A DNA stretch of 64,000 nt from Podarcis gaigeae (lineage: Eukaryota): NCBI GenBank assembly GCA_964106915.2, contig OZ066923.1. One strand, 5' to 3'. Position 1 is the stretch's first letter. Each line of letters begins with the position of its first letter. A program made the position numbers. This document shows positions 5,201 to 47,200 of the stretch, in pieces.

Positions 5201-8200
5201 AGCAACACTGTTAACAGTGCCATCATTCAAGTTAAGTTTCTGATAAGATGGTGTCCAATTTGGTGGAGAAACTTGAAATCCCATTACTCACAGAGTTCCA
5301 TGTTTAAAAAATTTCATTTAAACTGAAATAAGTAGGGTGTGAATAAAAATCCATTTTGAGGATCAATCACATTCAGTGTTCTCCAAGTATAAAAAGTCAC
5401 CCAACCGTCTTTCATCTCAAACTCCCATGTGGCATTCTTTAAATACATTCCAGAAATTAATCTTCAATGTTTAAAGGAGCAACTGGATTAAATATTGGCC
5501 TCTCCTTTTTTTCTTGTATCTTTCCGTAAGTAACTTCAAAATCCATTTTTGTCCCAGTCAGGCATTCTAGAGTTCTGCCTTTTAGACTGTATCCTATGGC
5601 ATCTAATTTTTTAATCCTATATTGCACTATTTCTGCTGACAGTTCTAACACTGCAGGTGTTTGTTTAATTTGGTCCACAGAAATTCCCACCTTCAATAGC
5701 CCCTCCAGTCTTTCTTCCAGCACTGGAACTGAGTAGTAGAGAAGGGCAGGGCATTTTATTATTAGCTCTTTTAATTCTTGATCACTGCATTTGAAGATGT
5801 TCTTGGAGAACAGCAGGCTGTTCTGCATGCTATTAGGGTTAAGCTGAAAAACAAAGCCCTTCAGCTTGGATAGCAGACTCAAAACTTCAAAGTCAGTGAA
5901 TTTGTTCTTCTGAAAAAACCCCAAATTTTCTTCAACAGCAGCCGAAGAATTTAACAAAATAAATGGGTTTTGACTCAGTAATTTCATCATCCAGTTCTTC
6001 ATATTTTCCTGTGAACCTCCTAGCCTTATATAGTTACTTTGTAGGGTTTCTATCATATGCTTGTTCTTTGCAACAGGATTATAAAAAATATTTGATGCGC
6101 TTGTTAGGAGCCGGCTGATAACCGCATTTTTCAGTCCCAGATCTTTGAAGAACCTAACGTTGGCTTTCTGGTTTTCATAGTTTTTAACTGTAAAAAAGGA
6201 GTCTGGGAACCGTTTTATTAATTCAACTAGTTGTTTTTCGTTTTGGCAGACTGATAACCACAATTCCCTCTGATAATGGATATCTGTAGGGCTACAAAGA
6301 ATTGCCTCAGGACAGCGTTCAAAAATATATGCCACAGAACTCTTGTCAGCTCCCATTTCTTGCAAAATCTTAGCTGTTTCCTTGATGTGCGTCATCTCTT
6401 TTGAGAGCACCCATGGCTTTAGCCTACGGATCTTCTTGATATCCACAGATAACTCATAGAGGCTTTGTACAGTAGCCTTGTTCTCTCCAGCAGCGACATC
6501 AGATGTATATCGAAAATGCAGTAAAAAGTTTCTGTTGTGTCTTTGATTCCATAAGGCTGAAAGAGCTGGCAACAGCAGGCGAGGCTGAGATCGCATAAAT
6601 AGATTTGGAGCAACGTGGGTCATTTCAGTTTGTGATTTAGCACTATGTCTGAGAAGGCCTGAAAGAATGAAAGTATTTGAGATAGTATTAATACTGTGCC
6701 TGTTCAACCTTTCTTTTTTTGGGGGGGAGGGAGAACAAGAAAACAATATTTTCCCCACTTAGGGAATTTCTGCTCCTGTTTAACAACAATCTTTCCAGGC
6801 TGTAATTATGCTCCACTCTGTGGCAGCTGCATTCAAATATTCATATTTAAATAATGTGTATGCTTGGCACCTTCTGTCTCAGCCAGATATAAATGATAAA
6901 CGACTGGTAATCTGTAGCAGAATTTATGTTAGTAGGTCAACAGAAACTTGCAATGCAAGAGGCTGGGTGCCTGTTGCTACACCTCCTGAGACCTAATAGG
7001 GGGTAAAATAAAACCACACACTTTAACTGCCGGAGGAATTGATCAAGAGGACCAAGGAATGGATGGGAAAGCACAATTACCTGCTACATCTGTATTGTTA
7101 AGGTAAGTGCACCAGTCACCTTCACACACCCATGACAGTTAAATCTATTTGTTTTCATTTTTTTAAAGGTCCCATTTCACAACTTTACTCTCGCCTATTT
7201 TGCGATGCCTCTATTTTTTCACCATCACAGAAGCAGGTGGAACTTCAGGAGACATGCACCATGTTTTTGGCAAAACTTTAAAAGAGCTTTGGTCCCTTGA
7301 AGTACCATGGAGGTAGCCATGTTACTGAAAAACCCTGCCCACAGAGGCTCCCCTATTGTACAACTTTCGTTATATGCTGAAGACCCACCTCTTTTTTATA
7401 TTGATAGGAGGTTTTTTTTGGGGGGGTCAGTCTGGATGATGCCCCGAGTCCCTTCTGATCCTTGAGATCCTGGATCTGTGCAAGCTTGCCAAACCAGTTC
7501 CTTTATCTTTAAGGTAAAGATTTTGGGTAGCCATTTAAGCACCGCAATCAGGACAACCAAATTAGTTACCCTGCTTGGAAATTGGGGTGGCATGTATCAA
7601 TATATTTAGGATGCATTCCAGTTGTGACTGCTATGGGAGGAATGCTAGAATCGGGTTGTAAAGTCTGCTTCTTATTTATTTTATTATTTTAAGGCTGGCA
7701 TAAGCAGCACCGGATTTAGGTTTGATGAGGCCCTAAGCTACTAAAGGTAATGGGGCCCTTTATATGTCCAGTTGTCCATTGTCGACAACAAATTGTCACT
7801 GTTTTTTGTGTTGAATATATGCTATATGGTAATTTATGGACCTAACAGGTATCTAAAGCCATTTGCACATAACAGAATACATATTTTATTAAATAATTGT
7901 TGAACTGAAATGCAATTAAGAAGAAGCATATTAACAGTGAAATAATTATTAAGCTCTAACTTAAAATGATTGGGGGCCCATTACTTACATCACAGGAGCC
8001 TACACAACACAAAACACTGTTGCTGTATGTAGGCTTTATTTTATTTGTTTTTTGTCTTATATTTTGGAAATGTACATCCTGTGTTTTTTCCATGGGGGGG
8101 GGGCAAGAGAGTGGGGCCCTAAGCTATAGCTTGTTTAGCTGATACGTAAATCCGGCACTGCACTGGTGGCCAGGTGTGTGCCAAACACCGCGCTGTCCCT

Positions 8201-44200: not shown

Positions 44201-47200
44201 GTCTTATGGCACCTTACATGCAGCACAACTTATGCAAGTGATGAAGCAGTCATTAAATTAAATTATGAACAGACAATGTATGCAGAAAATGTGATTCATT
44301 ACATATAAAAACATATTAACAAATATTAAAATGTATGCAAGGTATGGTAACAAGTTTCAGAAAGAGAAAACATATAATATTTATTGAGAATTAATTCCTA
44401 ATGGACTGATTCATTTTTGTCTTGCAGCTTTGCTGAAAGAGAAGGATCCACACCCTAAAATTTCAGGGCAAAATTATTTCACTTCATATTGGAATTAAAA
44501 GTTTTTGTGAGAGTACTTGTATTAAAATGTGCATTTTCATGCATTTATTTTCACACAGTCTGAATGGTTGTAAACAAGTATGTTTTTTAATGCATTGTTT
44601 CTAACTGGTATTTCTATGGTTTTTAAACTTTTAATGACTCACAAAGGGGAAATAGAGAATTGTAAATAAAGCATTTGGTGATGAATTTGGTAACTTACTG
44701 TAAATATAAGCATTCATGATTAGTGATAGACTCATCAATATATTTTTGATATTTCATGTATGGCTTTCAGAAAAGGCTTTAATTGGATGGATATAAAATG
44801 GAAACTGTCCAGACAATGATGACCTTGATCATTTTTAGATTTAATATTTTTAGATTCGGGGCAGGATTTTTGACCCCTTTATGAACCAAACTGTCTTTTC
44901 AAAATGGTCAGCTCTTATATGTCTGTGTATAAAATACAATAGAGATGTTACTCTATGAAAATACAGCTGTATATAAGTCTCATATGCCAATATTTTGTTA
45001 AACTATGAAGTTGTCATGTCTGATGTTTTGTCCTTGTATTTCCCACTGCCTTGTTCAATCACAGTGAGGATGCCCTTGTTAATAAAAATGTATATACAGG
45101 TTGTTTCATTTAAGTCTTGTTTTTGAGCAGATTTTGTATTGGTCTAGTCAATACCGTTTTTAAGAAGTGCTAGCATACAAGTTTTGAATTGCTTATACCT
45201 TGTGTTTATAGAATTTTATAGCTTCAAATAGCATTTGAAGAGTTTAATCACCCTCACTAGCTATTGTCCTAAGCACCCACAGCCAAGGAAGGCACATATC
45301 TGATAGCTAATCCTTTACTGACAAAAGTGCGTACTTAAAGCAACTCTCACAGTGCTCCAGAAGTCCAGTTACTGAACTTAAATATGGAACATGTTTACTT
45401 CTGATATTTTGCCTCTTATAAGGGTAGTAGTTCCTGTTATTCCTTTCACAATGAGTCCCTCTGCATTTCTTTTCTGCATTCAGCTGGAAGCAGGTTTATC
45501 CCTGGTTCCATATGGCATTTGTGGCAATGCTATCTTCTACATTACTATCCTGCCAGTGGTACCTTGGGTTACATACACTTCAGGTTACATACACTTCAGG
45601 TTACAGACTCCGCTAACCCAGAAATAGTGCTTCAGGTTAAGAACTTTGCTTCAGGATGAGAACAGAAATCATGCTCCGGTGGCGCGGCAGCAGCAGGAGG
45701 CCCCATTAGCTAAAGTGGTGTTTCAGGTTAAGAACGGACCTCCGGAACGAATTAAGTTCTTAACCCGAGGTACCACTGTACTTGCTCTGGTTTTTAGTAG
45801 TAAATATTTGCTTTAGTACACAAAGAATTTAAACAGGATATAAAAATGGCAAACATTGCCTGTTTAATTCCTGGGAACAGGTAACATATTACAGTGGTGC
45901 CCCGCAAGACGAACGCCTCGCAAGACGAAAAACCCGCTAGACGAAAGGGTTTTCCGTTTTGGAGGCGCTTCGCAAAACGAATTTCCCTATGGGCTTGCTT
46001 CACAAGAATTTCCCTATGGGCTTGCTTCGCAAGCGCTGCCGCCCGCCAGCATTTTAAGATCGCCCCGGACAGCGGAGAAGTCCTCCGCTGTCCCGGGGTT
46101 TTTAAAATGTGGGCGGGCGGCAGCGAAGGCTTCGCTGCCGCCCGCCAGCATTTTAAAATCGCCCCGAGAAGTCTCCGCTGTCCCGGGGGCTTTTAAAATG
46201 CTGGGGGACGGCAGCGAAGGGTTCGCTGCTGCCCGCCAGCATTTTAAGATCGCCCCGGGACAGCGGAGAAGTCTCCGCTGTCCCGGGAAGGCAGGCAGGG
46301 GGAAGCAAAGACTTTCGCCCCCCGCCGGCCTTCAGAAGAGGTCGGGGGACAGACTGTCCCCGGACCTGGTCTGAAGGCGGTTTCCATAGGAACGCATTGA
46401 TAGATTTTCAATGCATTCCTATGGGAAACCGTGCTTCGCAAGACGAAAAACTCGCAAGATGAAAAGACTTGCGGAACGAATTAATTTCGTCTTGCGAGGC
46501 ACCACTGTACAAGAAATAAAATAGTAGCAATGCAGGTTGAAATGCTCCTGGTTAGTTCTATAGTAAAGAACAGGGAACTAGGCCTAAATCTGGTATGCAA
46601 TTCCCAAGTAGCTGATTTTTTGAATTTAACTGTGACACCAGTGCAGCAAAGTGCAACCATAAAATATAGTGCAAACATCATAGAAAGGTGGAGCTTTTCT
46701 CTGTCACCAACTGCTTCACAGTTCCACTCCTCCATGCAAGGTGAGTTAATACCACTTTCCCAGTTCCCACATTAGAGGTTAGCACTGCAGTTGCACTTAA
46801 AGTTAGAAAAAACACTGCAGCCCAGGTCTTGAAACATGGAGGACTCCCAGGAAAACCCTTGAATGCAGTAGTTTTTGCAACCATTTTGTCTGGATTCTCC
46901 AGAAAACCAGAATAAACTACTTAAACACCAGTTCTTTATGGTTTATTACTATCCATATAAATCTTTAGGAATAATAAAAATCCATTGAATTTATTTGTTA
47001 ATCTGAATGGTGAAAGTAATCAAGCTTTTTGCGGAGTTCTTTTTTTAAAAATAAAATAAAATCAAACCTCTGTTCTTGTCAATTTGACCTATAGAGGGTG
47101 CTCCAAGAGCTAAAGTATGATTTCTTCTTCTTCACCTCATACATCTCTGGGATAGCCAGCACTTTTGTAAACAGTATACAAACAATATGCCCAGCCAGTG

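What the first reader, a model, noticed from the sequence alone, without database searches (positions are those of the whole stretch)
8165..45105. CRY1 is head-to-head with MTERF2, inverted relative to human and mouse
Seen: TMEM263(+), MTERF2(-), CRY1(+), with the two CpG islands ~4 kb apart and divergent. Established: in human and mouse CRY1 is on the same strand as MTERF2, with its 3' end next to the MTERF2 promoter. Inference: a gene-sized inversion (breakpoints within ~8.7-12.4 kb and beyond 45.1 kb) in one lineage. It places clock D/E-boxes close to a mitochondrial transcription regulator and moves the mammalian CRY1-upstream desert to the 3' side. Which state is ancestral is not visible here.
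Basis: partly seen in the sequence, partly recalled or inferred. Interest (0 to 1): 0.65.

Follow-up and report, generated by a model that had tools for sequence, protein, structure and literature searches.

The report
CRY1 faces MTERF2 head-to-head
In this gap-free stretch the clock gene CRY1 points away from its neighbour MTERF2, whereas in humans its tail faces MTERF2; this is an ordinary one-gene flip whose lineage of origin could not be determined here.

Summary
The window has no N. It carries three genes:
- the last coding exon of TMEM263 on the + strand
- a single-exon MTERF2 reading frame on the - strand
- a complete 12-exon CRY1 on the + strand

All three were identified by Pfam, solved-structure and Atlas matches.

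Two CpG islands, 8001-8900 and 12501-14700, lie 3.6 kb apart and face away from each other.

For humans, two papers place one SNP "downstream of CRY1" and "between Cry1 and MTERF2". Human CRY1 therefore shows its 3' side to MTERF2, and here it shows its 5' side. Gene order is the same as in cattle and across gnathostomes. A flip of CRY1 alone is the simplest account.

Not shown:
- which lineage flipped; no vertebrate genomes were available
- the far breakpoint
- any regulatory effect

E-box, D-box and RORE counts are within chance. The 3.6 kb gap is too wide for a shared promoter. MTERF2 already cycles in human cells.

No inverted repeats link the two flanks, and nothing suggests misassembly. 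This is a real but modest finding.

The parts
1986..2240 (+). TMEM263, last coding exon (the part matched by Pfam) and its stop codon
   Evidence: Pfam PF15475 UPF0444, E 3.5e-39, profile positions 9-91 of 91. The ORF is listed.
5457..6623 (-). MTERF2 coding sequence in one exon, 388 codons plus stop. A splice acceptor lies just upstream, with the exon starting at 6658.
   Evidence: ORF. Pfam mTERF 7.4e-27. PDB best hit is MTERF1 at only 5e-38. Atlas clusters are named MTERF2, 0.96. The acceptor was read.
8001..8900 (-). CpG island taken as the MTERF2 promoter and non-coding first exon. A candidate donor A|GTAAGT has 8220 as the last exon base.
   Evidence: GC 0.52, CpG o/e 0.70 against 0.33 for the whole window. 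The donor was read. The exon assignment is inference; no transcripts were available.
8901..12500 (.). Spacer between the two islands, A+T-rich. The near junction of any CRY1-only inversion must lie here.
   Evidence: It holds one repeat copy at 9555-9985 and an E-box at 9298 and a D-box at 9204.
12501..14700 (+). CRY1 CpG island, covering the promoter, 5' UTR and exon 1
   Evidence: 2.2 kb, GC 0.595, CpG o/e 0.98, 190 CpGs.
12570..12577 (-). D-box-like motif 1.5 kb upstream of the CRY1 ATG
   Evidence: The window holds 9 such motifs against 4.4 +/- 2.3 expected, so the motif alone is weak evidence.
13449..13474 (+). E'-box (13449-13454) and E-box (13469-13474), followed by a CCAAT box and a GC box. 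This is the likely core of the CRY1 promoter.
   Evidence: The E-box count in the window, 6 against 3.6 +/- 1.9 expected, is within chance.
14080..14237 (+). CRY1 exon 1, from the ATG
   Evidence: Pfam DNA_photolyase positions 1-47, E 8.2e-13. Donor AG|GTTAGT.
30087..30195 (+). CRY1 exon 2
   Evidence: Pfam DNA_photolyase positions 50-85, E 6.6e-10. Borders.
31368..31510 (+). CRY1 exon 3
   Evidence: Pfam DNA_photolyase positions 86-131, E 8.7e-7. Borders.
32491..32675 (+). CRY1 exon 4
   Evidence: PDB: CRY1 chains 107-118 bits against 64.5 for CRY2; matches residues 138-198 of 4k0r.
34704..34792 (+). CRY1 exon 5
   Evidence: PDB: CRY1 50-53 bits against 34 for CRY2; residues 200-228.
35476..35616 (+). 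CRY1 exon 6
   Evidence: PDB: CRY1 97.8 bits against 89 for CRY2; residues 229-275.
35717..36028 (+). CRY1 exon 7
   Evidence: 103 of 104 residues identical to CRY1 chain 5t5x, residues 276-379. Pfam FAD_binding_7, E 1.9e-35.
37215..37366 (+). CRY1 exon 8
   Evidence: Pfam FAD_binding_7 positions 96-146, E 3e-13. Borders.
37466..37668 (+). CRY1 exon 9
   Evidence: Pfam FAD_binding_7 positions 148-203, E 5.4e-14.
38444..38545 (+). CRY1 exon 10, start of the tail
   Evidence: The only PDB match is full-length mouse CRY1 4k0r, residues 499-527, E 3e-12. Donor G|GTAAGT.
40990..41064 (+). CRY1 exon 11
   Evidence: The only PDB match is 4k0r, residues 551-572, E 1.8e-4.
41146..41249 (+). CRY1 exon 12, with the stop at 41247-41249
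   Evidence: The only PDB match is 4k0r, residues 574-606, the C-terminus of CRY1, E 3e-7.
41250..45105 (+). CRY1 3' UTR; its end is uncertain
   Evidence: AATAAA at 43291, 43304, 44665 and 45081. There is no transcript evidence.
45106..64000 (.). Flank downstream of CRY1 with no recognisable gene, only repeats. The far junction of the inversion is either here or beyond the window.
   Evidence: None of the 8 ORFs tested from this stretch matched a Pfam family. No Rfam family matched. Repeat copies are listed.

Best explanation
This is a real, contiguous piece of a non-mammalian vertebrate chromosome. My recall of the repeat types suggests a squamate. MTERF2 and CRY1 lie head-to-head, each with its own CpG-island promoter, and the islands are 3.6 kb apart. 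Relative to the human layout, where the 3' side of CRY1 faces MTERF2, only CRY1 is turned round. The order TMEM263-MTERF2-CRY1 and the tail-to-tail TMEM263/MTERF2 pair are unchanged. The simplest history is one inversion of the CRY1 gene alone. One junction would lie in the 3.6-kb spacer (8.9-12.5 kb) and the other beyond the 3' end of CRY1. CRY1 carries its own proximal promoter (E'/E-box, CCAAT, GC box) and its first intron with it, so its clock control most likely went with the gene and the flip is most likely neutral. Shown: gene identities, strands, spacing, contiguity, and the contrast with humans. Inferred: a single inversion and its neutrality. Unknown: whether the flip happened on the line to this animal or on the line to mammals.
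For: - No N anywhere in the window.
- TMEM263 on +, MTERF2 on -, CRY1 on +.
- All 12 CRY1 exons match CRY1 in collinear order and score higher against CRY1 than CRY2 wherever both matched.
- The MTERF family member is supported.
- CpG islands at 8001-8900 and 12501-14700.
- Human: one SNP is described as 'downstream of CRY1' (PMC8592106) and as 'in between Cry1 and MTERF2' (PMC7850819).
- Cattle: the order is TMEM263, MTERF2, CRY1, BTBD11, with 4.1 kb between MTERF2 and CRY1. A coding variant of MTERF2 lies at the TMEM263 end of that gene (PMC6913038), as the coding exon does here.
- The order TMEM263-MTERF2-CRY1 is reported as conserved in gnathostomes (PMC9897032).
- An inverted segment holding more genes would have carried CRY1 away from MTERF2 (reasoning).
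Against: - The far junction was not seen.
- No inverted repeats or duplicated junction sequence mark either flank. Of the 19 inverted pairs, none has one arm in 8.9-13.4 kb and the other beyond 41.3 kb. The same holds for the BLAST rows.
- No second species with strands could be examined, so two or more successive rearrangements cannot be excluded.
- The strand of human MTERF2 and the whole mouse layout rest on recall.
- Neutrality is assumed, not tested.
Confidence: 0.75

Rival explanations
1. The flip happened on the line leading to this animal (within lepidosaurs or squamates). The mammalian tail-to-head layout would then be ancestral for amniotes.
For: Nothing direct. The path from the amniote ancestor to this animal is somewhat longer than the path to the common ancestor of human, mouse and cattle (reasoning). 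The 3.6-kb spacer holds lineage-type repeats, but these do not date the junction.
Against: No outgroup strands could be read. PMC9897032 reports conserved order in green anole, turtle, gharial, chicken, frog, coelacanth, gar and shark and mentions no exception, but its strands are shown only in a figure.
Confidence: 0.4
2. Head-to-head is the ancestral vertebrate layout and the flip happened on the stem leading to mammals. The window then shows nothing special to lizards.
For: Nothing direct. Human and cattle evidence, with mouse by recall, covers only placental mammals, so a mammalian origin is as open as any other.
Against: None found; untested.
Confidence: 0.35
3. Assembly error: the CRY1 segment was placed the wrong way round.
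For: The spacer and the 3' flank contain short interspersed repeats. A 99% palindrome lies at 12622-12838.
Against: There is no gap in the 64 kb, so this is not a scaffolding flip. No inverted repeat pair brackets CRY1. The palindrome is a repeat-family insertion flanked by a 9-12-nt direct repeat of the target, and a third copy of its arm lies at 26788-26919. The sequence on both sides of it is therefore continuous.
Confidence: 0.06
4. The head-to-head layout couples MTERF2 to the clock through the CRY1 E-box and D-box elements, giving a functional gain.
For: An E'/E-box pair at 13449-13474 and a D-box at 12570 lie 3.7-4.6 kb from the MTERF2 island. A further E-box (9298) and D-box (9204) lie about 300-400 bp beyond that island.
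Against: Motif counts are within chance: E-box 6 against 3.6 +/- 1.9 (17 of 100 shuffles reach 6); D-box 9 against 4.4 +/- 2.3 (7 of 100); RORE 2 against 1.8 (52 of 100). The islands are 3.6 kb apart, well beyond the usual limit of about 1 kb for a shared promoter (a recalled criterion). MTERF2 is already rhythmic in human cells and co-induced with Cry1 in sheep, so this layout is not needed for coupling.
Confidence: 0.07

Closest known systems
The human, cattle and mouse TMEM263-MTERF2-CRY1-BTBD11 locus (human 12q23.3)
   Same: The gene order is the same. MTERF2's coding exon lies next to TMEM263 (and the window). A similar short gap separates MTERF2 from CRY1: 4.1 kb in cattle, and 3.6 kb between the islands here.
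   Different: In humans the downstream side of CRY1 faces MTERF2; here the upstream side does. CRY1 spans 95 kb in cattle and about 31 kb here.
Single-gene microinversions between vertebrate genomes
   Same: One gene changes strand while the order of its neighbours is kept.
   Different: The usual marks, inverted repeats or duplicated junctions, were not found in the window. The second junction was not seen.
Bidirectional (shared) CpG-island promoters of head-to-head gene pairs
   Same: Divergent transcription from CpG islands.
   Different: There are two separate islands 3.6 kb apart, with A+T-rich sequence carrying a repeat copy between them. This is not one shared island.
Mouse Cry1 clock control: promoter elements plus an RRE enhancer in intron 1 (+26 kb) and an RRE site at -7 kb (PMC5900709, passages)
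   Same: An E'/E-box lies in the island core, a D-box upstream, and RORE-like sites in intron 1 at 25288 and 27262.
   Different: None of these motif counts exceeds chance, and homology to the mouse elements could not be tested. Seven kb upstream of the likely CRY1 start lies the MTERF2 coding exon, so an upstream site like the mouse one has at most about 5 kb of room.

Membership tests
CRY1 (vertebrate cryptochrome 1) | An N-terminal photolyase domain followed by the FAD-binding domain, in order | tested here: met
   Exons 1-3 cover DNA_photolyase profile positions 1-131. Exons 7-9 cover FAD_binding_7 positions 3-203.
CRY1 (vertebrate cryptochrome 1) | Closer to CRY1 than to CRY2 or CRY4 | tested here: met
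   CRY1 against CRY2 bit scores: exon 4, 118/107 against 64.5; exon 5, 53.5 against 34; exon 6, 97.8 against 89; exon 7, 242 against 230.
CRY1 (vertebrate cryptochrome 1) | A CRY1-type C-terminal tail | tested here: met
   Exons 10, 11 and 12 each match only full-length mouse CRY1 (4k0r), at residues 499-527, 551-572 and 574-606.
CRY1 (vertebrate cryptochrome 1) | An intact reading frame across all exons | tested here: met
   Twelve exons with AG/GT borders, phases that fit, and a sum of 1773 nt. The exons were checked one by one. The joined protein was not made or searched.
MTERF2 | mTERF repeat protein | tested here: met
   Pfam PF02536, E 7.4e-27, profile positions 13-313 of 314.
MTERF2 | Orthologous to MTERF2 rather than MTERF1, 3 or 4 | tested here: inconclusive
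   No MTERF2 structure is solved. The best PDB hits are MTERF1 at a paralogue-like 134 bits over about 325 residues. The top two named Atlas clusters are MTERF2 (0.96), and the third is named MTERF4-like at 0.95. Its position between TMEM263 and CRY1 fits MTERF2.
TMEM263 | UPF0444 domain | tested here: met
   PF15475, E 3.5e-39.
Single-gene inversion | Same neighbours and order, with one gene on the opposite strand relative to a reference genome | tested here: met
   Window strands set against the human literature and the order in cattle and gnathostomes. The strands of human and mouse MTERF2 are recalled.
Single-gene inversion | Both junctions located | tested here: not met
   Only the near junction interval (8.9-12.5 kb) can be bounded. 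No junction signature was found.
Single-gene inversion | Polarity set by outgroups | not testable with these tools
   No vertebrate genome collection was available. Papers give strands only in figures or supplements.
Bidirectional promoter pair | Start sites within about 1 kb in one shared island (recalled criterion) | tested here: not met
   The islands are 3.6 kb apart. The candidate MTERF2 exon-1 donor at 8220 is 5.9 kb from the CRY1 ATG at 14080. Start sites were not mapped.
Clock-controlled Cry1-type regulatory set (E-box, D-box, intronic RRE) | The three motif types present at the promoter and in intron 1 | tested here: inconclusive
   The motifs are present, but their counts are within chance. 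Binding and homology were not tested.

The most novel reading that the evidence does not exclude
The flip is specific to squamates (or a subgroup). It cut CRY1 off from whatever lay upstream of its promoter, for example a counterpart of the mouse -7-kb RRE site. It also put the promoter within 5 kb of MTERF2. The timing of CRY1 expression and the daily expression of MTERF2 would then differ from other amniotes.
Probability: 0.05. Interest if true: 0.45.

Novelty: new member of a known kind. Interest (0 to 1): 0.2.

Why it matters
CRY1's delayed daily expression depends on cis elements spread over its promoter, its first intron and, in mouse, a site 7 kb upstream (PMC5900709). A natural flip that changes what lies upstream of the promoter is a small natural experiment on how much of that control travels with the gene. 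In itself, a one-gene inversion between lineages separated for some 300 million years is common. It can be read from any annotated genome browser, so its value is mainly as a synteny marker once its polarity is known.

Tried and rejected
Literature
- None of the listed papers links CRY1 or MTERF2 with head-to-head, bidirectional promoter or inversion (in particular).
- I read passages only, by term look-up, in 15 papers, and none whole.
- None gave gene strands for a non-mammal in its text.

Junction marks
- Inverted-repeat and self-BLAST scans found only interspersed repeat copies.

Other searches
- Rfam: 0 matches.
- Pfam on 10 further ORFs: 0 families. Eight ORFs came from 45-64 kb, one from the spacer and one from intron 1.
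- Motif enrichment: not above chance.

Left aside
- Strand-skew analysis, because skew moves with the gene and cannot test a flip.
- The one open sequence collection (bacterial and archaeal genomes), which was not scanned because it holds no vertebrate chromosomes.
- Exons were handled singly.

I met no contig that I take for human. I do not take the window itself for human, because its gene orientation, exon sequences and repeats differ.

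
Full report
**What is in the sequence**

The window has no N and no soft-masking. Stop-to-stop ORFs and Pfam give three genes.

- TMEM263: the last coding exon is on the + strand. UPF0444 matches 1986-2237 at E 3.5e-39, and the stop is at 2238-2240.
- MTERF2: one frame on the - strand, ATG 6623 to stop 5457, 388 aa.
  - It matches Pfam mTERF at E 7.4e-27.
  - No MTERF2 structure is solved. The best PDB hits are the paralogue MTERF1, at 134 bits over about 325 residues.
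  - The two best named Atlas clusters are chordate 'transcription termination factor 2, mitochondrial' at 0.96. The third is an MTERF4-like name at 0.95.
  - Together with its position, I call it MTERF2, but orthology was not strictly tested.
  - On the - strand a splice acceptor precedes base 6658. A candidate donor (A|GTAAGT, last exon base 8220) lies in the CpG island 8001-8900. That this island is the MTERF2 promoter and first exon is inference.
- CRY1: twelve coding exons on the + strand (see below).

**CRY1**

I found the exons from open frames and fixed the borders at AG/GT sites with fitting phases.

| Exon | Coordinates |
|---|---|
| 1 | 14080-14237 |
| 2 | 30087-30195 |
| 3 | 31368-31510 |
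| 4 | 32491-32675 |
| 5 | 34704-34792 |
| 6 | 35476-35616 |
| 7 | 35717-36028 |
| 8 | 37215-37366 |
| 9 | 37466-37668 |
| 10 | 38444-38545 |
| 11 | 40990-41064 |
| 12 | 41146-41249 |

The first attempt at exons 10-12 was out of frame. The donors G|GTAAGT at 38545 and 41064 restore it. The lengths sum to 1773 nt, that is 590 codons and a stop.

The joined protein was never made or searched, so the full-length identity to any CRY1 is not given.

The exons match in collinear order:
- Exons 1-3 cover DNA_photolyase profile positions 1-131, and exons 7-9 cover FAD_binding_7 positions 3-203.
- Exons 4, 5, 6 and 7 match CRY1 residues 138-198, 200-228, 229-275 and 276-379. Each scores above CRY2.
- Exon 7 is identical at 103 of 104 residues to a solved CRY1.
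- Exons 10, 11 and 12 match only full-length mouse CRY1, at residues 499-527, 551-572 and 574-606.

The 3' end is open.

**Layout**

The strands are TMEM263 +, MTERF2 -, CRY1 +. TMEM263 and MTERF2 are tail-to-tail, with their stops 3.2 kb apart. MTERF2 and CRY1 are head-to-head.

The CpG islands are 8001-8900 (o/e 0.70) and 12501-14700 (o/e 0.98, 190 CpGs), against 0.33 for the whole window. The gap between them is 3.6 kb.

**Comparison with mammals**

I could not fetch any vertebrate genome. From papers (passages only):
- One human SNP is 'downstream of CRY1' (PMC8592106) and 'located in between Cry1 and MTERF2' (PMC7850819). MTERF2 therefore lies on the 3' side of human CRY1.
- In cattle the order is TMEM263, MTERF2, CRY1, BTBD11, with 4.1 kb between MTERF2 and CRY1. 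An MTERF2 coding variant lies at the TMEM263 end of that gene (PMC6913038), as the coding exon does here.
- The order TMEM263-MTERF2-CRY1 is reported as conserved in gnathostomes, green anole included (PMC9897032). Strands are only in its figure 5a, which is not held.

The contrast is therefore real. An inversion that took more than CRY1 would have moved CRY1 away from MTERF2, so a CRY1-only inversion is the simplest single event.

**Junctions and assembly**

There is no gap, so a scaffolding flip is excluded. None of the 19 inverted pairs joins the spacer with the region beyond CRY1, and neither does any self-BLAST row. All are copies of interspersed repeats.

A 99% palindrome at 12622-12838 looked suspicious. 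It is an insertion of a repeat-family member in fold-back form, flanked by a 9-12-nt direct repeat of the target. A third copy of its arm lies at 26788-26919. The sequence around it is therefore continuous.

I found nothing that suggests misassembly, but reads were not available.

**Regulation**

The core of the CRY1 island has an E'-box (13449), an E-box (13469), a CCAAT box and a GC box about 600 bp before the ATG. A D-box lies at 12570. RORE-like sites lie in intron 1 at 25288 and 27262.

This resembles the mouse scheme. There, an RRE enhancer in intron 1 and an RRE site at -7 kb contact the promoter (PMC5900709).

The counts are within chance:

| Motif | Found | Expected from shuffles | Shuffles reaching the count |
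|---|---|---|---|
| E-box | 6 | 3.6 +/- 1.9 | 17 of 100 |
| D-box | 9 | 4.4 +/- 2.3 | 7 of 100 |
| RORE | 2 | 1.8 | 52 of 100 |

Two of the six E-boxes (15951, 17900) sit at the same offset in two copies of one repeat.

The idea that the flip brings MTERF2 under clock control is not needed. MTERF2 cycles in human corneal endothelial cells (PMC9123520). Mterfd3 rose with Cry1 after melatonin in sheep (PMC3689899). Islands 3.6 kb apart are not a shared promoter.

**Downstream of CRY1**

From 45.1 to 64 kb I found no gene. None of the 8 ORFs tested from this stretch matched a Pfam family, and Rfam gave nothing. The far junction was not located.

**What stayed unchecked**

- Polarity of the inversion.
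- The far junction.
- Start sites and the poly(A) site.
- Orthology of MTERF2 by a tree.
- Homology of the motifs to the mouse elements.

Supplements were closed, and figures are not held. The bacterial and archaeal genome collection was not scanned, because it holds no vertebrate chromosomes.

**Verdict**

It is best read as a one-gene inversion of unknown polarity and probably without effect. Interest is low to modest.

Noticed in passing
window 12591-12838 (arms 12622-12722 and 12738-12838); related copy at 26788-26919: A near-perfect palindrome: 101-nt arms, 99% complementary, 15-nt spacer. It is made of two inverted copies of a short interspersed repeat and is flanked by a 9-12-nt direct repeat of the target. 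It sits at the 5' edge of the CRY1 CpG island, about 630 bp before the E-box.
   Followed up: partly
window 7710-8160 and 9555-9985: Two copies of one element of about 440 bp in direct orientation (89.5% and 77.7% identity over two pieces). They bracket the MTERF2 CpG island and its upstream 650 bp. They could be two insertions of one family or the ends of one longer element.
   Followed up: no
window 45801-46600 (tandem units at 45979-46033 and 46075-46257): A CpG-rich block (o/e 1.01, 54 CpGs) just after the last CRY1 poly(A) signal. It is built of 27-nt and 91-nt tandem units with internal inverted symmetry. None of its ORFs matched a Pfam family. It could be a repeat-derived island or an unannotated promoter.
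   Followed up: partly
window 15838-16202, 17787-18159, 21480-21650, 27359-27601, 28998-29335, 56615-56925, 63595-63957: One interspersed repeat family with at least 7 copies on both strands. Two copies in CRY1 intron 1 account for the CpG-island-like patches at 15701-16400 and 17701-18400. Each carries a CACGTG at the same offset (113), so 2 of the window's 6 E-boxes are repeat-borne.
   Followed up: partly
window 9204-9211 and 9298-9303: A D-box and an E-box 90 bp apart, about 300-400 bp beyond the MTERF2 island on the CRY1 side. By my rough estimate such a pairing would arise by chance in roughly one window in six.
   Followed up: partly
window 60441-60845 (+): An open frame of 134 aa that, from recall, looks like the C-terminal end of a BovB/RTE-type LINE protein. 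That would fit a squamate source. Pfam found no family, so the name is recalled and not tested.
   Followed up: partly
window 24038-24342: A tandem duplication of a 150-nt unit, 2.0 copies with 93% matches, in CRY1 intron 1.
   Followed up: no
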